Assembly (NCBI GenBank): GCA_044356825.1
Contig: JBIKVM010000001.1
Coordinates: 1 to 51,395, forward strand
Length of the DNA stretch: 51,395 bases
Reading direction: 5' to 3'
Source of the DNA: Limisphaerales bacterium
GTDB taxonomy: Bacteria > Pseudomonadota > Alphaproteobacteria > Rhodobacterales > Rhodobacteraceae
A model generated the notes under the pieces. That model made no database searches and had not been told where the DNA came from. It worked only from the letters and a program-made list of their open reading frames with translations. Position numbers and translations under genes: made by a program. Positions 1,726 to 39,068 of this stretch are shown one piece after another; within the stretch, counting starts at the first letter, position 1; every line of letters begins with the position of its first letter.

Positions 1726-2211
1726 TCAGCGGTCGCGCACGAGGCGTACGGCGAGTTCCTGATAGGGGAAGAAGCGGCCGTAGCTGTGGCCGGTGCGGAA
1801 GTTCACGCTCCAGACGTGGCGGGGCGCGAGCCAGTTGCGATTCGCTGTCCAGAAGGAGTCGGCCGGGGTGTCGGGGAAGTTGACCGGGTCGATCTTGGTG
1901 CCCTCGCACTCGAGGCAGAGGAGGCTTTCGAGCTCCGCGCGCGAAGGCAAGCGCCAACCGGGGCCGAGTTGCGCCTCGGCCTGCGCGATGGCCTCGGCGG
2001 CCGCGTCGATGCTGAGCATGACGGCGGCGCCGTCGCAGCGCTCCGTCTCGGGGTTCCAGCGCTGGCCAACCGTGCAGCGCAGCCATTCGATCCCGCGCGA
2101 GAGGTCGGTGACATAGAGATCCTTGGCATAGAACTGCGCCGCCGCCCCGCCGGCCGAGGCAAGACCGATGACGAAGGCAGCGGGAGCGATCAGAGCGAGA
2201 GGAAATCCCAT
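1726..2211 (-). CDS. Secreted DUF1566 (Lcl C-terminal domain-like) protein, about 161 aa
   Basis: Internal ATG at 2211 gives a signal peptide (MGFPLALIAPAAFVIGLASAGGAAAQ). DUF1566-type motifs: GWRLPSRAELESLL, FWTAN, VWSVNFRTGHS. High GC3. The ORF-track start at 2256 would lie inside the motA promoter region. Confidence 0.6.
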   Translation of the reverse strand: MGFPLALIAPAAFVIGLASAGGAAAQFYAKDLYVTDLSRGIEWLRCTVGQRWNPETERCDGAAVMLSIDAAAEAIAQAEAQLGPGWRLPSRAELESLLCLECEGTKIDPVNFPDTPADSFWTANRNWLAPRHVWSVNFRTGHSYGRFFPYQELAVRLVRDR

Positions 2212-2250
2212 GTTCAGACCTTTGCAGCGCACCCTGAGCGCGTCAAGTGG

Positions 2251-2266
2251 GGGCATCCGGATTGCC
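2251..2266 (+). promoter_or_regulatory. Candidate sigma54 promoter upstream of motA: GGGCAT-ccgga-TTGCC
   Basis: GG-N10-GC spacing is correct and the -12 TTGC is intact. The first base of the -24 element is G rather than T. About 105 nt upstream of the motA ATG. Confidence 0.45.
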
Positions 2267-8373: not shown

Positions 8374-8761
8374 GATCGCGCTGCCCGGAAGCGTGAACGG
8401 CAAAGAGCACATGCAGATCGCGCAGGACGCCTGTCTCGGCCGCGAACTCGGACTGGCCCGAAGCGAAGCCCTCGACAAGACGCTCGCGCAGGTGGCGCAT
8501 CAAGAGGCAGATTAGGCCGGACGCCAGACCCCCCGCACGCAAGTCTATGCTTTCGAATATGAAATCCACTCCGCGCAGGATGCGCGTGCGTTCGACCTCT
8601 GCGTCGGAGGCCCGGCCGTCCACCTCGGCGCTCTCAAGCCGCGTCAGGCCCTTCAGGATACCGTCGAGGGCCACATAGATCGTGGTGACCGGATCGATGC
8701 GAAAGTCGCGATGCGGATAGCGCCGCAGACGATAGGACTGTAGCGAGGCCACGTCACTCAT
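8366..8761 (-). CDS. Second FliS-like chaperone, 131 aa
   Basis: ATG 8761. Weaker but recognisable FliS pattern: IDPVTTIYVALDGILKGL...RILRGVDFIFESIDLRAGGLASGLICLLMRHLRERL. Confidence 0.5.
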   Translation of the reverse strand: MSDVASLQSYRLRRYPHRDFRIDPVTTIYVALDGILKGLTRLESAEVDGRASDAEVERTRILRGVDFIFESIDLRAGGLASGLICLLMRHLRERLVEGFASGQSEFAAETGVLRDLHVLFAVHASGQRDHG

Positions 8762-8897
8762 GCTATCTTCCCCCTGCGGTCGATGGTCGGACCGTGGAAA
8801 ACCCGATGCTTGCAACCCCAGTCAGCGCCGCCCCGATGCTTCCACCCTCGATTTCGGGGCCGGAACGGGGCACGCTCGGCGGTCCGCTTCCCCAACT

Positions 8898-8913
8898 TGC
8901 AAGCGCTGTGCCA
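8898..8913 (-). promoter_or_regulatory. sigma54 promoter: TGGCAC-agcgc-TTGCA
   Basis: Full consensus match on the minus strand. About 125 nt upstream of ATG 8761. Confidence 0.6.
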
Positions 8914-8955
8914 GACCTGCGGCAGACGGTCTTTGGTCTTGAGCCGCCAAAGCCC

Positions 8956-9195
8956 ATGCACGCGGCGGGTGCGATGCGGTCCTACCGCGAAGCGTCGCTG
9001 GCAGAGGGGTTCGCGGGTCGCATCATCCACCCGGGTCAGGCACCGTCGGCAATCGCGACCGAGAACGCGCTCGTCGCGCGCAGCATCCTTGCGCCCGTCT
9101 ATGTGCACGACAGCGCGGCAAGCAAGATGGCGAGGCTGTCGAACCAGCACCGCGATGCGCCGCGCTACGGGAACCTCGTGAACCTGCTCGCCTGA
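8956..9195 (+). CDS. Possible small hypothetical protein, 79 aa
   Basis: High GC3 only from ATG 8956 onward. The ORF-track start (GTG 8794) would run through the sigma54 promoter and leader of the divergent operon, and that stretch has poor GC3. No clear Shine-Dalgarno sequence. Confidence 0.3.
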   Translation: MHAAGAMRSYREASLAEGFAGRIIHPGQAPSAIATENALVARSILAPVYVHDSAASKMARLSNQHRDAPRYGNLVNLLA

Positions 9196-9208
9196 GCGCA
9201 GAAGGTCC

Positions 9209-10051
9209 TCAGGCCTTGCCAGCCTCGGCTTCGTCCTCGCCCTTGCGACGCTTGCGCCGGCGCGACTTGACGCGCTCGGGCTCGTCATCGAAGCGCACTT
9301 CGGGGTCAAGAAGACGGTAGTTGGCGCGCGCGCGCACCTCGTCGGTCTCTGCCAGGATGTGCCAATAGAGCCGGTCACGATAGAGTTGGTAGGACCGCAG
9401 AAGGTTCAACTGCGCCCGCCGGGTATAGAGCGCGAGCAGCACATGCACGATCACCAGGATGGTCCAATGGGTCAGGAGTGTGACGCCATAGGCCACGAGC
9501 GCCCCGACCATCGGGAAGTAGAGCCGATGATTGAGCATCCACAGCGGGGGCAGCGTCGTCGCTAGCGGATCGGGCTGGGTCGGATGGATGGCTGCCACCT
9601 TGGCCTTGAGTTCGCGGAAGACCTCGTAGTTCTGATAGGCCGCGATTGGCCCGTAGGTGACGGACCTGAAGGCCGCGGCGATCTCGAGCGCGGTCTCGGG
9701 GGGGCAATGATCGAAGCTGCCGCGCAAGGGCGTCGTGTAGATCTGGTGAAAGAAGACCCCACCCCGGCAGAATGTCACAAGCCACCGCGGATCGATATCG
9801 GCCTCTTCGGCCGCCTTGTCTCCATCCTCGAAGAACCTCTGCAGCGCATCGACGTCGCCGCTGAACATCTGGCCGTCGATCGCCACCAGAATGTCACCGT
9901 CCTTGAGGCGCATCGACCGGCCAAGTTTCGAGACGCCGTCTTTCTCGATCCGCAGAAAGGTGGGGACCGTCGCAACGCCCTCGAGCGTGACGCCCCCTGA
10001 TCCCTGGGCACCGGGACGGGCGCGCGCGCCGGTCGTCTGGGGATCGGCCAT
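9209..10051 (-). CDS. Hypothetical membrane protein, 280 aa: N-terminal PDZ-like segment, C-terminal 2-TM region and basic tail
   Basis: Internal ATG 10051, 10 nt after the upstream stop. LKDGDILVAIDGQMF resembles a PDZ-type ligand-binding strand. TM region: LPPLWMLNHRLYFPMVGALVAYGVTLLTHWTILVIVHVLLAL. Tail: KSRRRKRRKGEDE. Confidence 0.55.
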   Translation of the reverse strand: MADPQTTGARARPGAQGSGGVTLEGVATVPTFLRIEKDGVSKLGRSMRLKDGDILVAIDGQMFSGDVDALQRFFEDGDKAAEEADIDPRWLVTFCRGGVFFHQIYTTPLRGSFDHCPPETALEIAAAFRSVTYGPIAAYQNYEVFRELKAKVAAIHPTQPDPLATTLPPLWMLNHRLYFPMVGALVAYGVTLLTHWTILVIVHVLLALYTRRAQLNLLRSYQLYRDRLYWHILAETDEVRARANYRLLDPEVRFDDEPERVKSRRRKRRKGEDEAEAGKA

Positions 10052-10061
10052 CGCGGTTCGC

Positions 10062-10889
10062 TCAGGGGAACTTGATGATGTCGCCGCCGCCCTGCGAGCC
10101 CGACGATGCGGCGGGCGCACGCGGCCGCGGTGCCGCGGGTGCGGCTGCGGGTGCCGGACGGTTTGCAACCGCCGTGATCTTGGCCGAGATTTCCTGCGAC
10201 AGCAGCGTCACCGCGTCCAGCTTGGCCATGATCTCGGTCAGCGCGGCAGCGGATCGGTCAACCGGCGGCTCCGCTGCCGCACCGGCTTCCGCGGCGCCCT
10301 CGGCCGGCACGGCAGGCGGTGCGACGCTCTCGAGTGCGGCCACCACGCGGCCGAGCGTTTCAGCCTGTTCGGCAAAACCCGCCGCCAGAGCGGATCCAAG
10401 CTCACCCGACATCAGGCCGAGCGGCCCCGGACTAGCCGGATCAGTGCCTGTCAGGGCGGTAGCGATCGACTGGGGCTGCGCGGCAAGGGCGGCTTCGATG
10501 CGGGCCATGGCCTCGGTGCTCTGGCCGATCGCACCCGCGATCTCGGCCTGAGCTTCGTCGAGCCCCTCGACGCTGCCGATTGCCCCCACGAGCTTGTCGA
10601 CGTTCTCGGCGAAGATGACGAGTGCCTCGAGCGATGTCTGGTTCGTCGTCTGCATCTCGCTCAGCGTACGGTAATACATGAGCGCGGCGAGGACGACCAC
10701 CGCCACCGCCCCGATCATCGAGCTGGCAAAGACAGCAATGGCATAGCGGTACACCTTCTTCACCTCGCGGGCTGAAGCTTCGTTCTGCTTGCGGATGGTC
10801 TCGAACTCGGCCGTGACGTTCGTGGCGGCGTCGGCCGCGTCGAGGGCGATCTTGATGCTTTCCTCGATGGCCCTTGTGTCCTCGCTCAT
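10062..10889 (-). CDS. Hypothetical bitopic membrane protein, 275 aa
   Basis: ATG 10889 shares an ATGA overlap with the upstream stop, and AGGAG is nearby. Short cytoplasmic N-terminus, one TM segment (YAIAVFASSMIGAVAVVVLAALMYY), then a long Ala/Glu-rich helical region and a Pro/Ala-rich tail. Confidence 0.6.
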   Translation of the reverse strand: MSEDTRAIEESIKIALDAADAATNVTAEFETIRKQNEASAREVKKVYRYAIAVFASSMIGAVAVVVLAALMYYRTLSEMQTTNQTSLEALVIFAENVDKLVGAIGSVEGLDEAQAEIAGAIGQSTEAMARIEAALAAQPQSIATALTGTDPASPGPLGLMSGELGSALAAGFAEQAETLGRVVAALESVAPPAVPAEGAAEAGAAAEPPVDRSAAALTEIMAKLDAVTLLSQEISAKITAVANRPAPAAAPAAPRPRAPAASSGSQGGGDIIKFP

Positions 10890-11101
10890 CGCGAACTCCT
10901 GACGGTGTGCGGACCGCGCGCGACGGTCGGTCTGGCTTCGAACCGAGCACAAACCGTGCCAGTTGCCACCAGAACTTCCTGCGACGGCAGGTTGGAGGAT
11001 TTGAACCCGAAGGACCGGCAGCCCCAAGGGCGCTGCGGCTCGTAGGTGACGAAGAAGTGCCTGCAGGTGCCGCATCGCACCTCGCGGGTGGGTGCCGTCA
11101 T
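10886..11101 (-). CDS. Small four-Cys protein, 71 aa (possible zinc ribbon)
   Basis: ATGA overlaps at both ends. Cys at positions 10, 13, 28 and 51 (RCGTCRHFFVTYEPQRPWGCRSFGFKS...VCARFE). Confidence 0.55.
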   Translation of the reverse strand: MTAPTREVRCGTCRHFFVTYEPQRPWGCRSFGFKSSNLPSQEVLVATGTVCARFEARPTVARGPHTVRSSR

Positions 11102-11319
11102 CTCCCGTCTCCGAACAATGCAAGCCAGATGGACGCAATCACGTGTCGCAGCGCGCCGAGGACGGACAAGAGCGCGCACACGCCAAGTCCGATGGCCTTC
11201 CAGCGTTCGCCCGCGTCAGAGGCAAGCAGTGCTTCGCCGCCGAGCCAGAGGCCCATGCCAAGAAAGACCGCCGTCGAAATCATGTCGCCCAGCGTGGCAT
11301 CGCGCTTCCGGATCCGCAT
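11098..11319 (-). CDS. Small 2-TM membrane protein, 73 aa
   Basis: ATG 11319, 6 nt after the flhB TAA stop. Two hydrophobic helices (ISTAVFLGMGLWLGGEALL, IGLGVCALLSVLGALRHVIASIWLALF). Confidence 0.5.
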   Translation of the reverse strand: MRIRKRDATLGDMISTAVFLGMGLWLGGEALLASDAGERWKAIGLGVCALLSVLGALRHVIASIWLALFGDGR

Positions 11320-11325
11320 GGCGCC

Positions 11326-12480
11326 TTACCCTCGTCCCTCGAGCGGTCGGCCATCCTCGCCAAACCGCAGTTCGGGCGGCAGATCCACCTCGGGCTGTTC
11401 GAGATCCTCGCCCCGGTCGATGCGATAGACATAGGCCAGCACCGCCGCTACCGCCGTGTAGAGCTTTTCCGAGATCTCCTGCCCGATCTCGCTCGTGAAG
11501 AAGAGCGCGCGCGCCAGAAGGGGGCTGCGCAGCACCGTGACGCCCGCCGCCTCGCCGCGCGCGATGATCATCTCGGCCATCCGCCCGCGACCCATCGCCA
11601 GAACGACAGGCGCGCCCGCCTCTCCTGCGTCGTATTTCAGCGCGACAGCGAAGTGCGTGGGGTTCGTCACGATCACACGGGCCTCGGCCACCTTGTCGAG
11701 TGCCTGCGCCGCTTGGGACGCGCGCCTCGTCGCCTCCATCTGCAGCCGCCGGATGCGCGACTTGATCTCGGGCGAGCCTTCGGTCTCCTTGTTCTCGTCA
11801 CGAAGATCCTGGCGGCTCATGCGCAGCTTTTCGATATGCTGATGGCGCGACCACAGGAAGTCGAGCGCCGCAGTCACCGCCAGCACCACGAGCGTTGCTG
11901 CGATGAGCAGCAGGAAGTCGCGGAAGAGCTTTTCGGATGCGCTTGCGAGCCCGGCAGAGGAAAGCGAGAGCAGCGACGGCAGCAGATGCCACAACGTCAG
12001 GATCGTGGCGCCACCGAGCAGACTGACCTTCACGACCGCCTTGATGAGTTCCATCAACCCGTGGATCGAGAAGATGCGGCCGAGCCCCGCGATGGGATTG
12101 ATGCGGGATCCCTTGAAGGCCATCGCGGCGGCAGCGAAATGAAGCCCCCCGACCAGAGACTGCGTGATGAGAGACACGACGAGCAGCGGCAACCCGACCA
12201 GCACCGAAGCGATCACGAAGACCCAGACCGCACTGGCAAGGTTCGTGCGAATCTGGTCGATCAGCGCCTCGGAGGGGTCCAGACGGAACCAAGACTGCCA
12301 GCCGCTCAGGACCTGCGGCATGATCGTCGCCGCCCCGAACATCACGATCACCCCCGCAAAGAGTGTCGCAAACACCATGACATCCTTGGCGCTGAGGATC
12401 TGGCCTTCCTCGATCGCCTTCTCAAGACGTCGTTGGGAGGGGTCTTCGGTCTTTTCCTGACCCTCGTCGCTTTCAGCCAT
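11326..12480 (-). CDS. flhB: Flagellar export apparatus protein FlhB, 384 aa
   Basis: MAESDEGQEKTEDPSQRRLEKAIEEGQ N-terminus. NPTH autocleavage site (VIVTNPTHFAVALKY). ATG 12480 overlaps the fliR stop. Confidence 0.92.
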   Translation of the reverse strand: MAESDEGQEKTEDPSQRRLEKAIEEGQILSAKDVMVFATLFAGVIVMFGAATIMPQVLSGWQSWFRLDPSEALIDQIRTNLASAVWVFVIASVLVGLPLLVVSLITQSLVGGLHFAAAAMAFKGSRINPIAGLGRIFSIHGLMELIKAVVKVSLLGGATILTLWHLLPSLLSLSSAGLASASEKLFRDFLLLIAATLVVLAVTAALDFLWSRHQHIEKLRMSRQDLRDENKETEGSPEIKSRIRRLQMEATRRASQAAQALDKVAEARVIVTNPTHFAVALKYDAGEAGAPVVLAMGRGRMAEMIIARGEAAGVTVLRSPLLARALFFTSEIGQEISEKLYTAVAAVLAYVYRIDRGEDLEQPEVDLPPELRFGEDGRPLEGRG

Positions 12481-13294
12481 CCGCAAGCCCCCTGAGCAAT
12501 CCGTCGAGGACGCCCAGCGCCTGACGGATGAGGTCCGTCAGCGCCGTGCCGAGCGTACCCGCCGACATGAACAGCAGCAGGAACGCAGCCATGAGGGTGA
12601 TCGGAAAGCCGAACGAGAAGAGGTTCAATTGCGGCGCCGACTTTGTGATGATCCCGATCGCGACGTTGATCAAGAAGAGGACTGCCGTCACGGGAAGCAT
12701 GATCGCCGCCGCCGCTGCGAACATCACCCCCATCGACTCAACGCCGATCGTTGCAAGCGGCATAAGCAGGATCGGCGTGCCGATGGGCAGGGCGCGGTAG
12801 CTCTCGAGCACCATGCCGATGGCGGCCAGATGACCGTTGAGCGACAGAAAGACTACGATCAGGAACAACATGAAGATCTGGCTGACGACAGGCGTCTGGC
12901 CCGTTCCGGCGGGATCGACCTGCGCCGCGAAGGACAGGCCCGCAGTCGAGGCGATCTTGTCGCCCGCGACGGCTGCAGCGGAGAAGATGATCGTGAGCAC
13001 AAGGCCAGCCGTCAGCCCGAGCGCGATCTCCTGCGCCACGATCGGCACGAGGCGGAAGCTTGTGAGCACATCGACCGGCGGCAGCGCCGCTTCGGTCATG
13101 ACAAAGGCCGCGAGCGCCACCCCGAAGACGATCCGGACCGGCAGTGGAACCATGCGCGACCCGAAAAACGGTGCAGCCAGCAGGAAGGCCCCGATCCTCA
13201 GCGAGGCGACCATCCCCAGCAGGAGCAGATCGAGCAGCCCCTGCATTCCGCTGCCGGGCAACCCGCCGAAATCGAGGGGGACGACTGGCAGCAT
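12473..13294 (-). CDS. fliR: Flagellar export apparatus protein FliR
   Basis: Polytopic membrane protein of 273 aa in the fliPQR-flhB position. ATG 13294 follows the fliQ stop. Confidence 0.9.
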   Translation of the reverse strand: MLPVVPLDFGGLPGSGMQGLLDLLLLGMVASLRIGAFLLAAPFFGSRMVPLPVRIVFGVALAAFVMTEAALPPVDVLTSFRLVPIVAQEIALGLTAGLVLTIIFSAAAVAGDKIASTAGLSFAAQVDPAGTGQTPVVSQIFMLFLIVVFLSLNGHLAAIGMVLESYRALPIGTPILLMPLATIGVESMGVMFAAAAAIMLPVTAVLFLINVAIGIITKSAPQLNLFSFGFPITLMAAFLLLFMSAGTLGTALTDLIRQALGVLDGLLRGLADG

Positions 13295-13295
13295 G

Positions 13296-13562
13296 TCAGC
13301 GCAGGTTCACGATTTCGTCGAAGATGAAGGCGAAATAGTCGGTCATCTGCGTCAGCGTGAAGCTCGACAGCAGCGCCATGGTCATAACGACGATCACGAG
13401 TTTGGGCACGAAGCTTAGCGTCATCTCGTTGATCGAGGTCGCCGCCTGCACGAGACCGATCGCCAGACCGACCGCCAGCGCCACCCCGAGGATCGGCCCA
13501 GCCATGATGACGATCTGCCAATAGGCAAGGCGGAGGTATTCCACGTTGCTGTCAAAATCCAT
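13296..13562 (-). CDS. fliQ: Flagellar export apparatus protein FliQ, 88 aa
   Basis: Typical FliQ sequence: IVIMAGPILGVALAVGLAIGLVQAATSINEMTLSFVPKL. Confidence 0.92.
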   Translation of the reverse strand: MDFDSNVEYLRLAYWQIVIMAGPILGVALAVGLAIGLVQAATSINEMTLSFVPKLVIVVMTMALLSSFTLTQMTDYFAFIFDEIVNLR

Positions 13563-13571
13563 CCTGTCCTC

Positions 13572-14339
13572 TCAACTCTGCACGAAGGTCGCGGCGAGCG
13601 ATCCGACCGTCATCGACCAGCCGTCGACCAGCACGAACAACAGAAGCTTGAAGGGAAGCGAGACGAGCATCGGCGAGAGCATCATCATCCCGAGCGACAT
13701 GAGGACCGAGGCGATCACCATGTCGATGACGAGAAACGGCAAGAACAGCAGGAAGCCGATCTGGAACGCCATCTTGAGTTCGGAGGTGATGAAGGCCGGC
13801 AAGAGAGTCGAGAAGGGGATGTCGGCCGTGCTCGCATAGGGCGGATCGCCCGCCATCTCGGCGAAGAGCAGAAGGGAATCTTCTTGCGTGTTCAGCACCA
13901 TGAACTGCTTCATCAGGGCGCTGGCGATACTGATGGCCTGTTCGGGCGTGATCTGCCCGTCAAGATAGGGCGAGAGCGCATCGTCGTAGATCGCGCCGAA
14001 GGTCGGCGCCATGATGAAGAAGGTCAGGAACAGCGCGATCGCGATCAGGACCTGGTTGGGGGGCGTCTGCTGCGTCCCGAGGGCCTGGCGCAGGATCGAC
14101 AGCACGATGATGATCCGCGTGAAGGCCGTCGCCCCGAGCACGATCGAGGGCAGGACCGTCAGCGCGGTCATCAGGGCAAGAATCTGGAGAGAAAGCGAAT
14201 AGGTCGTCGCGCCGTCCTCTCCAGTCTCGGAGGTCAGCGCGGGCAGGCCCGCGATGGCGTCGCCCAGCACGTTCTGCGCGGCGGCGGGGTGCGCCAGAGC
14301 GGCGGCGACCAGGGCAAGGGGCAGAAGGCGCGCGATCAT
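13572..14339 (-). CDS. fliP: Flagellar export apparatus protein FliP, 255 aa
   Basis: Internal ATG 14339 (ATGA overlap with fliO). Signal peptide, then the FliP core: TVLPSIVLGATAFTRIIIVLSILRQALGTQQTPPNQVLIAIALFLTFFIM. The ORF-track N-terminal extension is Arg-rich junk. Confidence 0.92.
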   Translation of the reverse strand: MIARLLPLALVAAALAHPAAAQNVLGDAIAGLPALTSETGEDGATTYSLSLQILALMTALTVLPSIVLGATAFTRIIIVLSILRQALGTQQTPPNQVLIAIALFLTFFIMAPTFGAIYDDALSPYLDGQITPEQAISIASALMKQFMVLNTQEDSLLLFAEMAGDPPYASTADIPFSTLLPAFITSELKMAFQIGFLLFLPFLVIDMVIASVLMSLGMMMLSPMLVSLPFKLLLFVLVDGWSMTVGSLAATFVQS

Positions 14340-14617
14340 TGCGTCCCCCCGGTCGGGGCATCGTCGCGCCCGAGATCGAGCAGCGCCCCCGCCGTCCCGC
14401 GCGCGGAATGCACAAGCACGCGGCGGTCGCCCACCCGCAGCAGCGTGACCCGCTCGGTCGGAGCAAGGTTCGCTTGTTCGACGACGACGATCTCGCGTCC
14501 CTGACGCAAGCGGGCGCCGATCCCCTCGCGGTTTCGGCGTACCCAGACCTGCACCCCGACCAGCAGCGCGAGGAACACGATCACGATCACGACTTGCGAT
14601 ATCGACACGCCCGGCAT
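14336..14617 (-). CDS. fliO: Flagellar protein FliO, 93 aa
   Basis: Single TM segment (VVIVIVFLALLVGVQVWV) and conserved tail (ERVTLLRVGDRRVLV). Sits immediately upstream of fliP. Confidence 0.75.
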   Translation of the reverse strand: MPGVSISQVVIVIVFLALLVGVQVWVRRNREGIGARLRQGREIVVVEQANLAPTERVTLLRVGDRRVLVHSARGTAGALLDLGRDDAPTGGTQ

Positions 14618-14653
14618 GGGTCAGGTCCGCTGTTGGACATCCTGACCTGACAA

Positions 14654-14669
14654 GGCAAGATTCGCGCCA
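14654..14669 (-). promoter_or_regulatory. Candidate internal sigma54 promoter in front of fliO: TGGCGC-gaatc-TTGCC
   Basis: Correct GG-N10-GC spacing. Lies in the unusual 172-nt fliN-fliO gap, about 26 nt upstream of ATG 14617. Confidence 0.5.
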
Positions 14670-14743
14670 ACTGCCCACGCAGGGCGCCAGCCACCGGGCG
14701 CAAGGGGGTCCGACCATCGCCGAGATCGATTCGCAACCCCGGC

Positions 14744-14759
14744 CGTCGGAGTTCCGACA
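14744..14759. promoter_or_regulatory. Palindromic box cGTCGGAGTTCCGACA (14/16 to consensus)
   Basis: Arms GTCGGA/TCCGAC are perfect. Centred about 108 bp upstream of the predicted fliO sigma54 transcription start, which is a typical enhancer distance. Confidence 0.45.
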
Positions 14760-14789
14760 GCCCCCGCTCCGGGGGGCGTCGGTGGGCCG

Positions 14790-15122
14790 TCAGATGCTTT
14801 CCATCCGCTTTTCGGGTTCGACGATCTCGCCCACCCGCACCCCGAAGCGTTCACCCACCATGACGATCTCGCCTTTGGCAACCATTGTGCCGTTGATGCG
14901 GATATCAAGCGGATCGCCCGCGAGGCGGTCGAGTTCGATCACCGATCCCTCGTTCAGGCGCAGCAGGTCGCGGATGGTGATTTCCGCGCGCCCCACCTCG
15001 ACGGTCATCTCGACCTCTATGCTTTCGAGCACCCGAAGGTTCTCGACCCCCGCGCGATCCGCCCGGCGTGCACCGCCGTCCGATGCCTCGCCTCCAAGGA
15101 TGTCGTCGTTCGACCCAGCCAT
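14790..15122 (-). CDS. fliN: Flagellar switch protein FliN, 110 aa
   Basis: SpoA/FliN domain: VEMTVEVGRAEITIRDLLRLNEGSVIELDRLAGDPLDIRINGTMVAKGEIV. Confidence 0.9.
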   Translation of the reverse strand: MAGSNDDILGGEASDGGARRADRAGVENLRVLESIEVEMTVEVGRAEITIRDLLRLNEGSVIELDRLAGDPLDIRINGTMVAKGEIVMVGERFGVRVGEIVEPEKRMESI

Positions 15123-15142
15123 GGCCCGTTCCTCCTGCGGCC

Positions 15143-16126
15143 TCAGTCGGCCGGTTTCTTGATCCGATTCTTCAGATTGAGTGCGGCCTGCCCGTTGATC
15201 TCGCCCAGCTCCGCCTCGAACATCGGCCGCCCCTCGAGCAGGACATCGATCTTGCCGCTGATCTGGATCGGGAACACGTCACCGCGCTGCATCTGGATCA
15301 GGCTGCGCATCGACACGCGCGGTTGCGCGAGCCTCGCTGTGATCGTGAGCGGGATGTTGAGGATCGCGCGCTCAAGCTTCTGGCGCCACGAGAGGTTGTC
15401 GCCCGACTTGTCCGATTGCACGCGCGAGCGGAGCTGCGAGGCGATGGGCTTGAGCGTCTGCAACGGATAGATGATGTCGAAGCTGACCGGATCGCCCTTT
15501 GGCAGCTGCACGAGGAAGGTGCAGACGATGACCGTGTCGCTGCCATCGACGAAGGAGGCGAACTGGATGTTCTCCTCGCGGCCCTGCACGGTGAAGTGCA
15601 CGGGCATGAGGTCGCGCCAGGCCATGAACAGCGCCTCGTTGAGGCCCTCGGTCACGATCTCGATCACGCGCTGCTCGGTCGCGGTGAACTCGCCCGACTT
15701 GCGCTTCATCGCCGTGACGGACCCGCCGTAATAGGAGTTCGTAAGCAGCGCGATGAAGTGCGGCGGCAGAACGGTCAACTGCGCGCCGCGCAATTCCTCC
15801 ATCCGGCTGTTCGTCAGGCTGACGAAGCTCTCGACCCCATGGGCGTATTCGTCGAAGGTCTTCACCTCGGGCGGAAAGGACGACATGCGCGGTTGAACGC
15901 GCAGCATGGGCAGGAAGACCGAACGCGCATAGCGGCAGAAGCGTTCGTTGATCATCCGCAGCGCGTAATAGTCGCCCAGCAGCGACAACTCATCCGTCCC
16001 GAACTGGAACGGACGCACTTCCGCGCCGGCGGAGATGATCGAGGTTGGGGCTGGTTCGGCGCCACCGCCAAGCCCCTCGATCAGAGCGTCGACCTCTTCG
16101 GTGGTCAGTCTGCGTGAAGACGGCAT
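15143..16126 (-). CDS. fliM: Flagellar switch protein FliM, 327 aa
   Basis: N-terminal LTTEEVDALIEGL peptide, FliM middle domain, and C-terminal SpoA-like domain. Confidence 0.9.
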   Translation of the reverse strand: MPSSRRLTTEEVDALIEGLGGGAEPAPTSIISAGAEVRPFQFGTDELSLLGDYYALRMINERFCRYARSVFLPMLRVQPRMSSFPPEVKTFDEYAHGVESFVSLTNSRMEELRGAQLTVLPPHFIALLTNSYYGGSVTAMKRKSGEFTATEQRVIEIVTEGLNEALFMAWRDLMPVHFTVQGREENIQFASFVDGSDTVIVCTFLVQLPKGDPVSFDIIYPLQTLKPIASQLRSRVQSDKSGDNLSWRQKLERAILNIPLTITARLAQPRVSMRSLIQMQRGDVFPIQISGKIDVLLEGRPMFEAELGEINGQAALNLKNRIKKPAD

Positions 16127-16144: not shown

Positions 16145-16774
16145 CTATTGCAGGATGAACGAGGTGAAGTAGAGCCCCTCCACCCCTCCGAAACCTTCGA
16201 GGGCTTCGAGCTTGGCATTGATGGCGCCGCGCATCCGCTCGGCCAGCGCATCCCGCCCCGCCTTGCCCTCGATGTCCTCTTCGGTGAACTCGCTGATGAT
16301 TCCGAGGATCTCGGAGCGCAGTGAAAGCTGATGCGTGTCGACATTGGTGATGACCGTCTGATCATACTGGGTCGACACCCCGATTCCGACCTGGAGGAAC
16401 TTGCGCGAGTTGCGCAGGTTGGTCGTGAATGTGCCCGGGAACTCGTAATAGGAGGTCACGAAGGTCTCGACCTCGGGCACCTCCTTGACGTTGAGTTGCG
16501 GCGCGCCAGCCTCGCCCTCGGCGCCTTCGGCGGCCTCCTCGCCTTCGGCGGGGGCTTCCTCCTCGGCAGGGGGTTCAAGCTGGCCGCTCTCCATCAGCTT
16601 GCGCTCGATGATGCTCTCGATTTCTTCCGACGGCGTCGGCGCGGCGCGACCGAAGACGACGTAGCCCGCCCCGAGGCCTACGCCGACAAGGCCCAGCCCT
16701 GCCCCGACGAGGCCGAGAACCTTGATGAGGCCACCCTTCTTCTTCTTGCCATCGTCTGCGGGTTGATCCGGCAT
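16145..16774 (-). CDS. fliL: Flagellar basal-body-associated protein FliL, 209 aa
   Basis: Lys-rich N-terminus, one TM segment, and a FliL domain ending EGLYFTSFILQ. Sits directly upstream of fliM. Confidence 0.85.
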   Translation of the reverse strand: MPDQPADDGKKKKGGLIKVLGLVGAGLGLVGVGLGAGYVVFGRAAPTPSEEIESIIERKLMESGQLEPPAEEEAPAEGEEAAEGAEGEAGAPQLNVKEVPEVETFVTSYYEFPGTFTTNLRNSRKFLQVGIGVSTQYDQTVITNVDTHQLSLRSEILGIISEFTEEDIEGKAGRDALAERMRGAINAKLEALEGFGGVEGLYFTSFILQ

Positions 16775-24728: not shown

Positions 24729-25916
24729 CTAATAGGCCATGCCGGCCACACGACGGCCGAAGGCGGTTTCATCGCGCCGCAGACGCAATCCGTCGGAGGG
24801 CGCATCGACGATGATGTCAGTTGCGGTTATGACCCCCTCGGCATGCAGCACGAGCGCCCGCTGCATCACGTTCTCGAGTTCGCGCACGTTGCCCGGCCAG
24901 TCATGGGCCAGCAACAGCGCGACCGCATCCTCGCCGAGCATCGGCATTGGCGTGCCGGGCGGGCAATGCTTGCGCAAGAGCGCGGCCGCGATCGCCACGA
25001 TATCGTCGCGCCGCTCCGCGAGCGCGCGCGTCGCCAGCGGAAAGACGTTCAAGCGATAGAAGAGATCCTCGCGGAAGCGGTTCTGGCGGACTTCTTCGTG
25101 GATGTCGCGGTTCGTCGTCGCGACGATGCGGACATCGACCTTGATCTCCGCCTGGCCGCCAAGCGGGGTCACGGTGCGCTCCTGCAGCACGCGCAAGAGC
25201 TTCGATTGCAGCCCGAGCGGCATCTCGGAAATCTCGTCCAGCAGCAGCGTGCCCCCCTCGGCGGCGCGGAAGATCCCCTTGTTGGCAAGCGACGCGCCGG
25301 TGAACGCACCCTTCTCGTGGCCAAACAGCACGGCCTCGAGCATGTTCTCGGGGATCGCGGCACAGTTGATCGCGACAAAGGGGTTGCCCCGGCGGACCGA
25401 GCGCAGATGGACATAGCGCGCGAGCACTTCCTTGCCGGTCCCCGTCGGTCCGTTGACGAAGACCGTCACGTCCGATCGCGCAACGCGGTCTGCAAGTTCC
25501 ATCAGCCGCGTCGTCGAGGGATCGGCCGCGATCATGTTCGAGGTTTCGGCACACAGGACGTCCGCGGCATGGAGCAGCGCGAAATCCTGCGCGAGCGGCA
25601 GGCCGGCGCGCGCAGTCGGCAGGCCCATCCGGATTACCCGGCCGCCCAGCTCGGTTTCGCAGACAAGGGTCGCGGCAGACTCGTCGAGGATCACGACAAG
25701 ACGAGGCCGCAGTGGCCGAAGCCGCTCAGTCAGCGCGCGCAACCCGCCGGCCGCGGCAACTGCGGCGGCCCCGCATGCATAGGCTGCCCCTGGTTGCACG
25801 CCGGGATCTCGGCCAGGATCGGCCGAAACCACCGCCCGGACCTTGCGGCGGGAAATCGCCTCGGCGAGCCGTTCGGCTGCAGCGAACCCGTTTGCATCGA
25901 TCACGACGTCGGACAT
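24729..25916 (-). CDS. fleT: sigma54 enhancer-binding protein without a DNA-binding domain (FleT-like), 395 aa
   Basis: Internal ATG 25916 with GGGAG at 8-nt spacing. AAA+ core: GPTGTGKE, GAFTGA (HEKGAFTGA), VRELEN. About 130 aa of N-terminal domain. Only about 45 aa follow the AAA+ core, with no Fis-type HTH. It is the first gene of the fliEFGHIJ operon, as described for R. sphaeroides fleT. Confidence 0.8.
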   Translation of the reverse strand: MSDVVIDANGFAAAERLAEAISRRKVRAVVSADPGRDPGVQPGAAYACGAAAVAAAGGLRALTERLRPLRPRLVVILDESAATLVCETELGGRVIRMGLPTARAGLPLAQDFALLHAADVLCAETSNMIAADPSTTRLMELADRVARSDVTVFVNGPTGTGKEVLARYVHLRSVRRGNPFVAINCAAIPENMLEAVLFGHEKGAFTGASLANKGIFRAAEGGTLLLDEISEMPLGLQSKLLRVLQERTVTPLGGQAEIKVDVRIVATTNRDIHEEVRQNRFREDLFYRLNVFPLATRALAERRDDIVAIAAALLRKHCPPGTPMPMLGEDAVALLLAHDWPGNVRELENVMQRALVLHAEGVITATDIIVDAPSDGLRLRRDETAFGRRVAGMAY

Positions 25917-25946
25917 CTTGCGCACTCCCTTGCGTCTCAAAGGAAA

Positions 25947-25962
25947 GGCAAGAAGCGGGCCA
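25947..25962 (-). promoter_or_regulatory. sigma54 promoter of fleT-fliE operon: TGGCCC-gcttc-TTGCC
   Basis: Correct GG-N10-GC spacing. The predicted transcription start is about 20 nt upstream of ATG 25916. Confidence 0.55.
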
Positions 25963-25976
25963 ACCCCCGCAGGGCC

Positions 25977-25992
25977 TGTCGGAATGCCCCGA
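25977..25992. promoter_or_regulatory. Palindromic box TGTCGGAATGCCCCGA (12/16; left half perfect)
   Basis: Immediately upstream of the fleT sigma54 promoter. Confidence 0.35.
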
Positions 25993-26002
25993 TCAAAGCA
26001 CA

Positions 26003-26015
26003 CAAATATCTGACT
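26003..26015 (-). promoter_or_regulatory. IHF-like site AGTCAGATATTTG within a 33-nt AT-rich island (26004-26036)
   Basis: One mismatch to WATCARNNNNTTR, with an A/T tract on its 5' side. Lies between the upstream boxes and the fleT sigma54 promoter, centred about -73. This is the only strongly AT-rich stretch in the region. Confidence 0.35.
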
Positions 26016-26149: not shown

Positions 26150-26773
26150 TCAGGTCAGCACGAAAGAGGTGATGATGACTTCCTCGATGTCGGGTTCGAG
26201 GCCCTCGGACACCAGCCAGTCATTCAAAAGCGTGCGGATCCGTTCGGTCAGGGCGCGCCGAGCTTCGACCGTGCGCAGATCCTCGGCGGCAACGTCGGCG
26301 AGTGTGTCCATGATCAGGCCACGTACGACGGCTTCGCGTTCCTGAAGGCGCAATATGACCCCTTCGGAAAACATTGGCGGCAGGAAAACGCTGACGGACA
26401 GTTCGAGACTGAAAAGACCCGAGCCGTCGCGGGCATTTCCGGCAAAAGCCGACGCGAAGCTGAAGTAGCGATAGGAGGGGGGAATGATCTGGCCTTGCTC
26501 GTCGACCTGGACGCGCTCTTCGCCCGTGGCCGTGGCTTCGGCGCCCGCGGGCACGGCTTCGCCCTGGGCGGGTGCCTCACCCTCGGCGGGTGCCGCCGTC
26601 GCTTCGGCGGCGGGCGCATCCGTGTCGGCGGGCGCGGTGGCCTCGAAGCGGTCGCGATAGGGCTGGAGGTGTTCGGCGCGCGGCCCGACTGCGGCGTGGC
26701 CGCCGATGAAGGCCGCAAGCACGATGAAACCCGGCAGGATATAGACGATCCCCTGGAGGAGAAGAGCCTTCAT
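26150..26773 (-). CDS. Second FliL-like protein, 207 aa
   Basis: Internal ATG 26773. N-terminal TM segment (LLLQGIVYILPGFIVLAAFIGG), Ala/Glu/Pro-rich linker, and a FliL-type C-terminal domain (LFSLELSVSVFL...LRTVEARRALTERIRTLLNDWL...VIITSFVLT). Confidence 0.6.
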   Translation of the reverse strand: MKALLLQGIVYILPGFIVLAAFIGGHAAVGPRAEHLQPYRDRFEATAPADTDAPAAEATAAPAEGEAPAQGEAVPAGAEATATGEERVQVDEQGQIIPPSYRYFSFASAFAGNARDGSGLFSLELSVSVFLPPMFSEGVILRLQEREAVVRGLIMDTLADVAAEDLRTVEARRALTERIRTLLNDWLVSEGLEPDIEEVIITSFVLT

Positions 26774-26893
26774 CCGACAGACCCCGCACGCTTGCCCGGG
26801 GTCGTCCCCGAGCGAAAAATGCACCCGAGGTCCGGATGGCACCCGCCACCGGACCTGCTGACGCCAGACGGCGCCCCCTGCATCGCGCCGTTG

Positions 26894-30861: not shown

Positions 30862-30877
30862 TGCACGAACCGTGCCA
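30862..30877 (-). promoter_or_regulatory. sigma54 promoter of flgP operon: TGGCAC-ggttc-GTGCA
   Basis: Correct spacing. The predicted transcription start is about 25 nt upstream of TTG 30826. Confidence 0.6.
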
Positions 30878-30918: not shown

Positions 30919-30934
30919 TGGCACAGGTTTTGCT
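30919..30934 (+). promoter_or_regulatory. sigma54 promoter of flhA operon: TGGCAC-aggtt-TTGCT
   Basis: Full consensus match. Divergent from the flgP promoter 42 nt away. About 140-nt leader to ATG 31086. Confidence 0.65.
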
Positions 30935-34600: not shown

Positions 34601-34628
34601 AGGGCCGCAAAGCGGAAAGGCAAGGGGG

Positions 34629-38996: not shown

Positions 38997-39068
38997 GGGC
39001 CTACCTCCGGTTGCAGGCAGGATCGGCAATCGGCCCGGTTTTTGCAAACAATCAATTTGACAGGGCAA

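What the first reader, a model, noticed from the sequence alone, without database searches (positions are those of the whole stretch)
9209..11319. Four uncharacterised, translationally coupled ORFs appended to the fliOPQR-flhB export-gate operon
Directly after flhB come four ORFs:
- a 73-aa 2-TM protein, 6 nt after the flhB stop
- a 71-aa four-Cys protein, joined by an ATGA overlap
- a 275-aa bitopic membrane protein with a long Ala/Glu-rich helical ectodomain, joined by an ATGA overlap
- a 280-aa protein with a PDZ-like N-terminal segment, a 2-TM region and a poly-basic tail, after a 10-nt gap

All have genome-typical GC3. No promoter-sized gap separates them from flhB. The nearest promoter I can read is the sigma54 element upstream of fliO at 14654. 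Co-transcription and coupling with the type III export gate genes suggest they are flagellar components or assembly factors. None matches a flagellar protein I recognise. This is the best candidate in the window for an undescribed functional module.
Basis: partly seen in the sequence, partly recalled or inferred. Interest (0 to 1): 0.7.

Follow-up and report, generated by a model that had tools for sequence, protein, structure and literature searches.

The report
Conserved four-gene flagellar add-on after flhB
Four small genes behind the flagellar export gene flhB are real and kept together in over 80 alphaproteobacterial genomes; one looks like the known motor-activating protein MotF, it and its partner gene have their own hidden promoter, and the other three proteins are uncharacterised.

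Summary
On the minus strand flhB is followed by orfA (73 aa, 2 TM), orfB (71 aa, four invariant Cys), orfC (275 aa, bitopic, helical) and orfD (280 aa, PDZ-like domain, TM hairpin, basic tail), with the stated 6-nt gap, two ATGA overlaps and 10-nt gap.

The order fliR-flhB-A-B-C-D recurs in nearly all 80 related loci from Rhodobacterales and SAR116. All four ORFs show coding-type divergence.

- orfC most likely belongs to the family of Rhodobacter sphaeroides MotF (RSP_0067), the bitopic protein encoded right after flhB that is needed, with FliL, for Fla1 motor rotation. This rests on position, size, topology and operon structure. I could not obtain the RSP_0067 sequence.
- The four genes are not simply one flhB-driven unit. 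A sigma54 promoter motif (TGGCAC-N5-GTGCT, 10961..10947) lies inside orfB, 58 nt upstream of orfC. It is present in 76 of 77 loci, freezes synonymous codon positions, and survives where orfB is lost.

orfD is a PDZ plus DUF2628-like protein that always accompanies orfC. orfA and orfB match no known family.

Verdict: a partly known, MotF-type, stator-associated module with three undescribed conserved partners. Interest is moderate.

The parts
11326..12486 (-). flhB, the last classical gene of the fliOPQR-flhB string (context)
   Evidence: TIGR00328 FlhB, E 6.7e-101. Pfam Bac_export_2 on identical metagenome contigs.
11098..11319 (-). orfA: 73-aa, basic (pI 9.3) protein with two hydrophobic segments. 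Starts 6 nt after the flhB stop. Conserved G-x-x-I-S-T-x-x-F and L-x-G-x-R-F-x-I-A motifs; F19 and R58 are invariant.
   Evidence: An ORF of 68-86 aa starts within -23..+2 nt of the flhB stop in almost all loci. Alignment. Also present after flhB in the MotF-type loci L085/L086 (blastp E 3e-11). No Pfam, NCBIfam or PDB family.
10886..11101 (-). orfB: 71-aa, very basic (pI 10.7) soluble protein with four invariant Cys (C10, C13, C28, C51). Core motif CxxC-x14-GC-x2-FGF-x7-P-x8-G-x2-CA. ATGA overlaps on both sides.
   Evidence: Alignments. Invariant Cys and Gly codons vary synonymously outside the promoter, so selection acts on the protein. Only sub-threshold zinc-ribbon hits and an insignificant GATA-finger hit (E 0.04). 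Absent in L005/L006 and in L085/L086.
10947..10961 (-). sigma54-type promoter motif TGGCAC-GGTTT-GTGC(T), embedded in orfB codons 48-52 (T-G-T-V-C-A). GG at 10960-10959 and GC at 10948-10947. The motif ends 58 nt upstream of the orfC ATG. Inferred start site near 10935.
   Evidence: Found. Present 55-86 nt upstream of orfC in 67 of 68 loci and 76 of 77 loci. Synonymous sites are frozen: Cys TGT 66/66, against 116 TGT: 82 TGC at the other three invariant Cys; in high-GC loci TGT 11/11 here against TGC 26/33 elsewhere; Gly GGC or GGT only; Thr/Ser always NCT; Ala GCT or GCA only. Kept in L005/L006, where orfB is lost. Equivalent intergenic TGGCAC-AAAAA-ATGCA and TGGCAT-GAAAC-ATGCA lie upstream of the motF-like genes in L085/L086.
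10062..10889 (-). orfC: 275-aa acidic bitopic protein, candidate MotF-family member. N-terminal cytoplasmic helix with near-invariant SIKIALDAADAAT (nt 10821-10859). TM at residues ~50-73 (nt 10671-10742). Conserved periplasmic juxtamembrane LEALVIFAENVD (nt 10596-10631). Variable helical region, Pro/Ala-rich linker and invariant C-terminal I-K-F-P (nt 10065-10076).
   Evidence: Alignments A1 and A7. The profile search finds 337 cluster representatives. AF2 gives pLDDT 79 with a continuous helix over residues 2-136. Same position as RSP_0067 after flhB. MotF descriptors from PMC7277832 match the sister subfamily: 23.9-25.6 kDa, TM 53/54-73/74. No Pfam, NCBIfam or PDB family.
9209..10051 (-). 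orfD: 280-aa protein. Disordered N-terminus; PDZ-fold domain at residues ~33-115 (nt 9707-9955); alpha/beta extension to ~157; DUF2628-like TM hairpin at residues ~168-224 (nt 9380-9550); C-terminal strand and helix 229-248; poly-basic tail KSRRRKRRK (nt 9242-9268).
   Evidence: AF2 pLDDT 84, pTM 0.77. All top Foldseek PDB hits are PDZ domains: RseP, GRASP55/65, MamP (probability up to 0.99, E 7e-3). Of 50 homologues, 30 hit PDZ_6 and 33 hit DUF2628, all weakly. Always follows orfC, including in L085/L086 (blastp E 5e-14).
   Evidence: A site matching the strict pattern lies 3.7-4.0 kb upstream of orfC in about 21 related loci.

Best explanation
The four ORFs are genuine accessory genes of a gamma-type, sigma54-controlled flagellar locus. 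The locus resembles R. sphaeroides Fla1 and belongs to an uncultured Gemmobacter-like alphaproteobacterium.

The four genes form two functional units.

Unit 1: orfA and orfB.
- orfA is a 2-TM protein and orfB is a 4-Cys protein.
- Both are translationally coupled to flhB and ride on the fliO-flhB transcript.

Unit 2: orfC and orfD.
- They have their own sigma54 promoter, written into the 3' part of the orfB coding sequence.
- orfC is the counterpart of MotF, the bitopic inner-membrane protein that R. sphaeroides needs, together with FliL, to start rotation by relieving the MotB plug.

Proposed mechanism (inferred):
- OrfC spans the membrane as one long helix and probably oligomerises.
- Its conserved periplasmic juxtamembrane segment (LEALVIFAENVD) lies at the level of the MotB plug and FliL.
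- Its variable helical region and IKFP tail reach periplasmic ring components of the FlgT type.
- Its near-invariant cytoplasmic N-terminal helix is held by OrfD. OrfD is a cytoplasmic PDZ-like scaffold tethered by a DUF2628-like hairpin, and it positions or stabilises OrfC at the motor.
- orfA, and where present orfB, are low-copy partners made in step with FlhB. Their role is open: export-gate accessory or regulator.

Shown here: the genes, their conservation, coupling, folds, and the conserved promoter motif.

Inferred: family identity with RSP_0067, topology, all protein contacts, and promoter activity.
For: Genes and junctions.

Synteny of fliR-flhB-A-B-C-D in nearly all 80 loci, from Gemmobacter, Nereida, Sulfitobacter, Planktomarina, Lentibacter, Roseicyclus and many SAR116/Puniceispirillales.

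Coding-type divergence.

MotF link:
- RSP_0067 lies directly after flhB RSP_0066 and is co-regulated with fla1 genes.
- Published MotF is 24 kDa, has a TM at residues 54-74 and a periplasmic C-terminal part, and occurs in some Rhodobacteraceae.
- The orfC profile retrieves a sister subfamily at E 1e-15 to 1e-25. Its members are 23.9-25.6 kDa with a TM at 53/54-73/74.
- That subfamily sits as flhB-orfA-[opposite-strand gene]-motF-like-orfD-like-rpoN-fliC. It therefore forms a two-gene unit of hypothetical genes, as I recall the MotF paper describing for motF.

Promoter:
- Motif and conservation.
- Frozen synonymous sites.
- Retained without orfB.
- Intergenic equivalents in L085/L086.
- rpoN and a sigma54 activator lie in the window.

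orfD fold. orfC helix.

Stator genes motB-motA lie convergently just after orfD in 48 loci.
Against: - The RSP_0067 sequence could not be obtained, so homology to MotF is not demonstrated.
- No hit named Cereibacter appeared in any search.
- The Dreyfus/Camarena group calls MotF 'Cereibacter-specific'. This could mean that RSP_0067 is too divergent to belong, or is unrelated.
- The window protein is 27.7 kDa, not 24 kDa.
- The -12 element is GTGCT rather than TTGCW, and no transcript data exist.
- The PDZ assignment rests on a predicted model, with Foldseek E only ~1e-2 and sub-threshold Pfam scores.
- No evidence for an OrfC-OrfD contact exists beyond strict co-occurrence.
- The predicted cytoplasmic PDZ cannot bind the (presumably periplasmic) IKFP C-terminus.
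- No function can be assigned to orfA or orfB.
Confidence: 0.65

Rival explanations
1. First reader's view. All four proteins are accessory subunits or assembly factors of the flagellar type III export gate. They are co-transcribed and translationally coupled with fliOPQR-flhB from the fliO sigma54 promoter.
For: Tight or overlapping junctions from flhB through orfD occur in the window and in most loci. orfA always directly follows flhB, even where the rest is rearranged. All four are membrane or small cytoplasmic proteins, as expected for gate partners.
Against: A conserved sigma54 promoter separates orfC-orfD from flhB-orfA-orfB. In L085/L086 an opposite-strand gene and a 160-nt gap separate motF-like/orfD-like from flhB-orfA. 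The positional counterpart MotF acts on the stator, not on export; delta-motF cells are Mot- and are rescued by MotB plug mutations. No similarity to FliO, FliP, FliQ, FliR or FlhA/B was found.
Confidence: 0.2
2. Regulatory module. orfB is a small, basic zinc-finger regulator. orfD is a PDZ sensor or scaffold that couples completion of the export gate to sigma54-dependent late gene expression. orfC and orfD would be regulators rather than motor parts.
For: orfB is very basic (pI 10.7) and has four invariant Cys. Its coding sequence overlaps a promoter. PDZ domains are common in membrane-tethered signalling proteins such as RseP, which gave the top structural hits. rpoN lies just downstream of orfD in 12 loci.
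Against: orfB is dispensable in several lineages that keep A, C and D. No DNA-binding family is matched. orfD has no protease or kinase domain. The MotF precedent gives a structural, motor-localised role.
Confidence: 0.1
3. Hitch-hiking or spurious ORFs. High-GC DNA yields long chance ORFs, and the four have no role in the flagellum.
For: High-GC DNA in this window yields many overlapping chance ORFs. No database family matches.
Against: The ORFs are conserved in AT-rich SAR116 genomes with the same order and junctions. Divergence is biased to third codon positions. Residues are invariant while their codons vary. The AF2 model of orfD is confident.
Confidence: 0.02

Closest known systems
MotF of Rhodobacter (Cereibacter) sphaeroides Fla1 (RSP_0067; Ramirez-Cabrera et al. 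2012, J Bacteriol 194:6174, as summarised in PMC7277832)
   Same: - Encoded immediately downstream of flhB in a sigma54-dependent, gamma-type flagellar cluster of a Rhodobacteraceae member.
[quoted passage not shown]
- First gene of a two-gene unit of hypothetical genes.
- Restricted to alphaproteobacteria of this group.
   Different: - The window protein is longer: 275 aa and 27.7 kDa, against 24 kDa.
- It belongs to an 'IKFP' subfamily. The subfamily that fits MotF's size and gene order best ends in NPFSYP (L085/L086).
- Here the gene is preceded by orfA and orfB with overlapping junctions, and its promoter lies inside orfB.
- The family is far wider (Rhodobacterales plus SAR116) than the 'Cereibacter-specific' label used in PMC10954123.
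FliL and the Sinorhizobium meliloti FliL paralog also named MotF (PMC9541039)
   Same: Single-pass inner-membrane proteins with periplasmic domains. They act on the MotB plug and on stator activation. orfC is predicted to work in the same place.
   Different: No FliL (PF03748) domain is present in orfC. orfC's periplasmic part is predicted to be all-helical and extended, not an SPFH-like globule. Two FliL-domain genes exist elsewhere in the window (16145-16774 and 26150-26842). S. meliloti MotF shares only the name.
Membrane-tethered PDZ proteins (RseP PDZ tandem, GRASP55/65) and Pfam DUF2628
   Same: orfD's N-terminal domain superposes on PDZ domains. Its TM hairpin resembles DUF2628 in 33 of 50 homologues.
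   Different: There is no protease or other catalytic domain. The PDZ is predicted to be cytoplasmic, not periplasmic. Sequence scores stay below Pfam thresholds. No PDZ-DUF2628 protein has, to my knowledge, been tied to a flagellum.
sigma54 (RpoN) -24/-12 promoters of flagellar class II/III operons (consensus TGGCAC-N5-TTGCW)
   Same: The GG-N10-GC spacing, the TGGCAY -24 box and the W after GC all match. The motif lies about 45-70 nt from the start codon. rpoN and a sigma54 activator are encoded in the same locus.
   Different: The first base of the -12 box is G (or A in L085/L086) instead of T. The element lies inside a protein-coding gene, where it fixes the codons of a Thr-Gly-x-x-Cys-Ala stretch. 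Activity is untested.

Membership tests
MotF (R. sphaeroides RSP_0067) | Detectable sequence homology to RSP_0067 | not testable with these tools
The papers are not held. No hit named Cereibacter appeared.
MotF (R. sphaeroides RSP_0067) | Encoded directly downstream of flhB in a Fla1-type, sigma54-dependent cluster | tested here: met
   Window order is fliM-fliN-fliO-fliP-fliQ-fliR-flhB-A-B-C-D. In R. sphaeroides, RSP_0066 is flhB and RSP_0067 is the hypothetical gene later named motF.
MotF (R. sphaeroides RSP_0067) | Bitopic; TM at about residues 54-74; N-terminus in, large C-terminal part periplasmic | tested here: met
   The best 21-residue hydrophobic window in orfC is residues 51-71. It is a single continuous helix, with Lys/Arg before the TM. 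This topology is a prediction only.
MotF (R. sphaeroides RSP_0067) | About 24 kDa | tested here: inconclusive
   orfC is 27.7 kDa. Sister-subfamily proteins retrieved by the orfC profile are 23.9-25.6 kDa.
MotF (R. sphaeroides RSP_0067) | First gene of its own two-gene transcription unit | tested here: inconclusive
   A conserved sigma54 motif lies upstream of orfC, and orfD follows after 10 nt. L085/L086 show a separate motF-like plus orfD-like pair. There are no transcript data. The two-gene-unit statement for motF is recalled from the paper's abstract, not read here.
MotF (R. sphaeroides RSP_0067) | Required for rotation; Mot- phenotype suppressed by MotB plug mutations; localisation depends on FliL, MotB and FlgT | not testable with these tools
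   These are experimental properties (PMC7277832).
PDZ domain (orfD N-terminal domain) | PDZ fold | tested here: met
   AF2 model with pLDDT above 90 over residues 31-150. The top 30 or so Foldseek PDB hits are PDZ domains, with probability up to 0.99.
PDZ domain (orfD N-terminal domain) | Pfam PDZ model above the gathering threshold | tested here: not met
   The window protein scores 16.2 bits on PDZ_6 against a cut-off of 27. Of 50 homologues, 30 hit weakly, best E 1.8e-5.
DUF2628 (orfD TM hairpin) | Match to PF10947 | tested here: inconclusive
   33 of 50 homologues match weakly, best E 6.2e-5. The window protein itself does not match.
sigma54-dependent promoter | -24 GG and -12 GC spaced by 10 nt within TGGCAC-N5-TTGCW, on the strand of the gene and upstream of it | tested here: met
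   TGGCACGGTTTGTGCT lies on the minus strand at 10961..10946 and matches 14 of the 15 specified or degenerate consensus positions. The same holds in 76 of 77 loci.
sigma54-dependent promoter | Conservation beyond what the overlapping coding sequence requires | tested here: met
   Synonymous sites are frozen. The motif is kept where orfB is lost and in intergenic DNA of L085/L086.
sigma54-dependent promoter | RpoN- and activator-dependent transcription start | not testable with these tools
   Needs 5'-RACE or RNA-seq in rpoN or fleQ mutants. rpoN (37497-39068) and a sigma54 activator (24729-26003) are present.
Zinc-ribbon / zinc-finger proteins (orfB) | Match to a defined zinc-binding family | tested here: not met
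   Four Cys are invariant. Only sub-threshold Zn_ribbon_4/5 and MJ0042 hits were found, and the PDB profile's best hit is E 0.04.
Known export-gate components (FliO/P/Q/R, FlhA/B) for orfA-orfD | Sequence similarity to any of them | tested here: not met
   There are no Pfam or NCBIfam hits. FliO, FliP, FliQ, FliR and FlhB are already encoded upstream.

The most novel reading that the evidence does not exclude
orfA and orfB would be previously unknown, lineage-specific partners of the FlhB export-gate subunit. OrfC (MotF-like) and OrfD (PDZ-DUF2628) would form a transmembrane complex that physically couples the cytoplasmic face of the motor or export apparatus to stator activation in the periplasm. 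That would make 'MotF' the visible tip of a widespread four-protein system in Rhodobacterales and SAR116, not a Cereibacter-specific oddity. Its own sigma54 promoter would have been co-opted into, and would now dictate, part of the orfB protein sequence.
Probability: 0.2. Interest if true: 0.75.

Novelty: new variant of a known kind. Interest (0 to 1): 0.55.

Why it matters
MotF is one of the few lineage-specific proteins shown to be essential for stator activation. It has been treated as a curiosity of Cereibacter.

If orfC is its homologue:
- The MotF family extends to at least 337 sequence clusters (representatives at 50% identity).
- It includes abundant marine groups: SAR116, Planktomarina, Nereida, Lentibacter, Sulfitobacter.
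- It always travels with a PDZ-DUF2628 partner that nobody has studied.
- This gives concrete, testable candidates for how MotF is recruited and how the MotB plug is released.

orfA is a universally flhB-coupled 2-TM protein. It is worth testing as an export-gate accessory.

The promoter embedded in orfB is a clean natural example of a DNA signal constraining codon choice, and possibly an invariant Cys, across two orders with very different GC content. It also warns annotators that tight ATGA-coupled gene strings are not necessarily single transcription units.

Tried and rejected
- Pfam and NCBIfam scans of the four proteins gave nothing above threshold.
- PDB sequence-profile searches were uninformative. 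orfC gave only compositional coiled-coil and apolipoprotein matches. orfD gave PDZ at E ~0.6-0.9. orfB gave a GATA finger at E 0.04, judged chance.
- Foldseek on the orfC model gave no meaningful match.
- Rfam over 8500-12600 gave no hit, so a known RNA element does not explain the frozen nucleotides.
- The sigma70 and terminator scan found no sigma70-like promoter in 8500-15500, and its only terminator-like site (15138-15153, + strand) lies outside the module.
- The MotF, FlgT and Fla1/Fla2 papers (PMC3486363, PMC3837945, PMC1855832) are not held.
- Looking for a protein named Cereibacter failed: two homologue searches and all three cluster look-ups.
- tblastn of a MotF-type protein against plasmids gave no match.
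- PDZ binding of the orfC IKFP C-terminus was considered and set aside. The PDZ is predicted to be cytoplasmic and the orfC C-terminus periplasmic.
- The idea that orfB is not a gene but only a promoter region was rejected on codon evidence.
- The genes downstream of orfD (79-aa convergent ORF, 131-aa, 124-aa, 131-aa and 161-aa ORFs) are conserved only in the close Gemmobacter MAG. They are not part of the module.


Full report
**1. Observation**

- flhB runs 12486..11326 and matches TIGR00328 at E 7e-101. Its stop is followed after 6 nt by orfA.
- orfA is 11319..11098, 73 aa.
- The orfA stop overlaps the orfB start as ATGA. orfB is 11101..10886, 71 aa.
- The orfB stop overlaps the orfC start as ATGA. 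orfC is 10889..10062, 275 aa.
- orfD (10051..9209, 280 aa) starts 10 nt after the orfC stop.
- A convergent + strand ORF ends at 9195, so the string ends with orfD.
- GC3 is 0.76-0.81.
- Gene calls on four independent metagenome contigs that encode the identical OrfD give products of 73, 71, 275 and 280 aa.

The window's organism is uncultured. Its closest genomes are two Gemmobacter MAGs, with 69-87% amino-acid identity across the four proteins.

**2. Are they real genes, and are they tied to flhB?**

A pattern scan of 185,579 species genomes with the orfC family alignment returned 211 confirmed relatives. The best 80 loci were kept.
- In nearly all of them tblastn finds fliR, flhB, orfB, orfC and orfD in the same order and strand.
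- Where tblastn missed orfA, an ORF of 68-86 aa still fills the ~230 nt between flhB and orfB.
- Junctions are as tight as in the window. flhB-A is -23 to +2 nt in most loci. A-B and B-C are mostly -4 or -1. C-D is usually 3-30 nt.
- The loci come from Rhodobacterales (Gemmobacter, Nereida ignava, Sulfitobacter, Planktomarina, Lentibacter, Roseicyclus, freshwater Paracoccaceae) and from dozens of AT-rich SAR116/Puniceispirillales genomes.
- Window versus L002 differences fall mainly on third codon positions in all four genes.
- Invariant residues of orfB are encoded by varying codons.

These are protein-coding genes under purifying selection, and the module is a stable part of this flagellar gene-cluster type. 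The refutation criterion 'no conservation next to flhB' is clearly not met.

**3. What kind of flagellar locus is this?**

The window carries:
- motA, motB, fliD and fliS;
- fliL, fliM, fliN, fliO-R, fliE, fliF and fliG;
- a sigma54 activator, a second FliL-domain gene, flgA, flhA and a ParA/SRP54-type region that resembles FlhG/FlhF;
- rpoN.

This is the gamma-proteobacterial-type, sigma54-driven system known from R. sphaeroides as Fla1 (PMC7277832).

**4. orfC is most likely a MotF-family protein**

Evidence from R. sphaeroides 2.4.1:
- The genes run fliO RSP_0062, fliP 0063, fliQ 0064, fliR 0065, flhB 0066, then RSP_0067, a 'hypothetical' gene co-regulated with the flagellar genes (PMC9779115).
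- RSP_0067 is motF (from my recollection of the Ramirez-Cabrera 2012 abstract; the paper itself is not held).
- MotF is present in some Rhodobacteraceae and is essential for rotation.
- It is localised in a MotB-, FliL- and FlgT-dependent way, and it is bypassed by MotB plug mutations.

Evidence from orfC:
- It is bitopic, with its hydrophobic segment at ~50-73.
- AF2 predicts one uninterrupted helix from residue 2 to 136, then three more helices and a disordered Pro/Ala tail.

Evidence from the wider family:
- An exhaustive profile search with the orfC family finds 337 cluster representatives at E ≤ 1e-3.
- These include a high-GC sister subfamily from Marivita, Pelagibaca, Roseovarius, Pseudoprimorskyibacter and Thalassococcus.
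- Its members are 23.9-25.6 kDa with the TM at 53/54-73/74, which matches the published MotF numbers exactly.
- Two such loci read fliL-M-N-O-P-Q-R-flhB, orfA homologue, an opposite-strand gene, a 160-nt gap, the motF-like gene, an orfD homologue, then rpoN and fliC on the other strand.
- The motF-like gene there heads a separate two-gene unit of hypothetical genes. This is how I recall the MotF abstract describing motF. The rpoN-fliC neighbourhood also matches my recollection of RSP_0068 and RSP_0069.

I could not obtain the RSP_0067 sequence. No hit carried a Cereibacter name. The same laboratory has called MotF 'Cereibacter-specific' (PMC10954123). Family membership is therefore an inference, which I put at about 0.8, not a demonstrated fact.

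The family's conserved parts are:
- a cytoplasmic N-terminal helix, S-I-K-I-A-L-D-A-A-D-A-A, with A15 and A18 invariant in 111 sequences;
- the TM segment;
- a periplasmic juxtamembrane stretch, L-E-A-L-V-I-F-A-E-N-V;
- a C-terminal I-K-F-P, which is N-P-F-S-Y-P in the sister subfamily.

The long middle region is variable and compositionally coiled-coil-like.

**5. orfD**

- With a 35-sequence alignment AF2 gives a confident model: pLDDT 84, pTM 0.77.
- Foldseek against the PDB returns PDZ domains almost exclusively: RseP PDZ tandem, GRASP55/65, MamP and DegS/DegP PDZs, with probability up to 0.99 and E from 7e-3.
- Scanning 50 homologues one by one, 30 hit PDZ_6, 18 hit PDZ_2 and 33 hit DUF2628, all below curated thresholds.
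- The architecture is a PDZ-like domain (~33-115), an alpha/beta extension, a two-helix membrane hairpin (~168-224, DUF2628-like), a short strand-helix, and a poly-basic tail.
- There is no signal peptide. Arg and Lys cluster after TM2, and the inter-TM loop is only about 3 residues long. I therefore infer that both soluble parts are cytoplasmic.
- orfD follows orfC in every locus where the contig allows it, including the rearranged L085/L086 (blastp E 5e-14 and 7e-11).

**6. orfA and orfB**

orfA:
- It is a basic 2-TM protein with an invariant Phe and an invariant Arg in or near TM2.
- It is the one gene that always stays glued to flhB.

orfB:
- It is a very basic 8-kDa protein with the invariant pattern CxxC-x14-GC-x22-CA.
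- It matches no defined family.
- It is missing in freshwater Paracoccaceae L005/L006.
- In L085/L086 it is replaced by an unrelated opposite-strand gene.
- It is therefore dispensable in some lineages.

**7. A sigma54 promoter inside orfB**

A loose sigma54 pattern search found TGGCACGGTTTGTGC on the minus strand at 10961..10947. It lies inside orfB, and its 3' end is 58 nt upstream of the orfC ATG.
- The same element, CTGGCAY-N5-GTGCW, occurs 55-86 nt upstream of orfC in 67 of 68 loci with an orfB.
- It falls in the -100..-1 bin in 76 of 77 loci. This makes it by far the most conserved sigma54-like site anywhere in the 16-kb loci.
- It overlaps orfB codons Thr/Ser-Gly-Thr/Met-x-Cys-Ala and freezes their synonymous positions.

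| orfB codon within the motif | Observed here | Comparison at other sites in orfB |
|---|---|---|
| Cys | TGT 66/66 | The other three invariant Cys use 116 TGT : 82 TGC |
| Cys, 11 high-GC loci | TGT 11/11 | TGC 26/33 at the other Cys |
| Gly | GGC or GGT only | Other invariant Gly use all four codons |
| Gly, low-GC genomes | GGC 32/45 | GGC 3/45 and 6/45 at the other invariant Gly |
| Thr/Ser | always NCT | In high-GC loci ACT 11/11, against 1/11 at another Thr |
| Ala | GCT or GCA only | This is the W of TTGCW |

- In L005/L006 orfB has decayed, but TTGGCACGAATTGTGCTGCA and TTGGCACGGTTTGTGCTGCA persist 78 nt upstream of orfC.
- In L085/L086 the intergenic DNA carries TGGCAC-AAAAA-ATGCA and TGGCAT-GAAAC-ATGCA about 50 nt upstream of the motF-like start.
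- No Rfam family matches the region.

I conclude that orfC-orfD have their own RpoN-dependent promoter. This agrees with motF heading its own unit in R. sphaeroides. Read-through from the fliO promoter (TGGCGCGAATCTTGC, 14669..14655) may add to it. Activity itself is untested.

A corollary follows. Part of the 'protein' conservation of orfB, including its fourth Cys, may be imposed by the promoter.

**8. Mechanism proposed (inferred)**

- OrfC/MotF stands beside the MotAB stator.
- Its conserved juxtamembrane periplasmic helix is at the right depth to act, with FliL, on the MotB plug.
- The variable helices and the C-terminal motif reach periplasmic ring components.
- The invariant cytoplasmic helix needs a conserved partner. 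The always co-encoded, membrane-tethered, cytoplasmic PDZ-like OrfD is the obvious candidate.
- Stator genes motB-motA lie convergently right after orfD in 48 of the loci. This is weak supporting context.
- orfA, and orfB where present, are made in step with FlhB. They may serve the export gate or regulation. The data do not decide.

**9. Novelty and score**

- The MotF part is known biology. The new points are listed below.
  - The apparent breadth of the family.
  - The obligatory PDZ-DUF2628 partner.
  - The flhB-coupled orfA.
  - The 4-Cys orfB.
  - The coding-embedded sigma54 promoter.
- I found none of these described in the searchable literature.
- I classify the finding as a new variant of a known kind.
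- Interest is 0.55. It is useful and testable for flagellar-motor specialists, but it does not overturn current views.

Noticed in passing
L005:7740-8004 and L006:7740-8004: In two freshwater Paracoccaceae genomes orfB has decayed: there is no CxxC ORF. The sigma54 motif TTGGCACGAATTGTGCTGCA / TTGGCACGGTTTGTGCTGCA still sits 78 nt upstream of orfC. This is a natural experiment that separates the promoter from the gene.
   Followed up: yes
L085:5259-5840 and L086:5281-5832: In the MotF-type loci (Pseudoprimorskyibacter, Roseovarius) an unrelated 183-193-aa gene on the opposite strand occupies the place of orfB, between orfA and the motF-like gene. It has no Pfam family.
   Followed up: partly
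window 26150-26842 (-): A second FliL-domain protein (PF03748, E 9e-8, 230 aa). It is additional to the fliL at 16145-16774 and lies next to the sigma54 activator gene.
   Followed up: no
window 8899-8913 (-): A perfect sigma54 consensus, TGGCACAGCGCTTGC, just downstream of orfD. It lies ~85-140 nt upstream of a string of small minus-strand ORFs (131, ~90-100, 71 and 131 aa) that leads to fliS. The ORFs that were tested are conserved only in the close Gemmobacter MAG L002.
   Followed up: partly
window 8956-9195 (+): A 79-aa ORF convergent with orfD. It is called as a gene on the metagenome contigs and is 93% identical in L002. It has no family match and is absent from the other loci.
   Followed up: partly
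window 30863-30877 (-) and 30919-30933 (+): Two back-to-back sigma54-like sites (TGGCACGGTTCGTGC and TGGCACAGGTTTTGC) in the region ahead of flhA, which suggests divergent promoters. The first has the same GTGC -12 variant as the orfB-internal site.
   Followed up: no
L021-L080 (SAR116 loci), about 0.6-1.5 kb after orfD: In 48 loci motB-motA lie convergently right after orfD. In 12 marine Rhodobacterales loci rpoN follows instead. In the window motA-motB-fliD are about 3-7 kb away on the other strand.
   Followed up: partly
orfB homologues of SAR116 loci (e.g. L015, L021, L036): Many SAR116 OrfB proteins end in a conserved ...NGRLA or ...KGRIA C-terminus, which is absent from the Rhodobacterales proteins. 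A hydrophobic C-terminus of this kind could be a ligand for the cytoplasmic PDZ-like domain of OrfD.
   Followed up: no
window 34440-36344 (+): One long ORF combines ParA/MinD-type hits (residues ~66-307) with weak, sub-threshold SRP54/AAA_22 matches (residues ~444-512). It may be flhG/flhF-like genes merged by my ORF choice, or a fused protein.
   Followed up: no
window 1726-2256 (-): A protein with an Lcl C-terminal domain (PF07603, E 7e-20) sits directly upstream of motA, at the edge of the flagellar locus.
   Followed up: no
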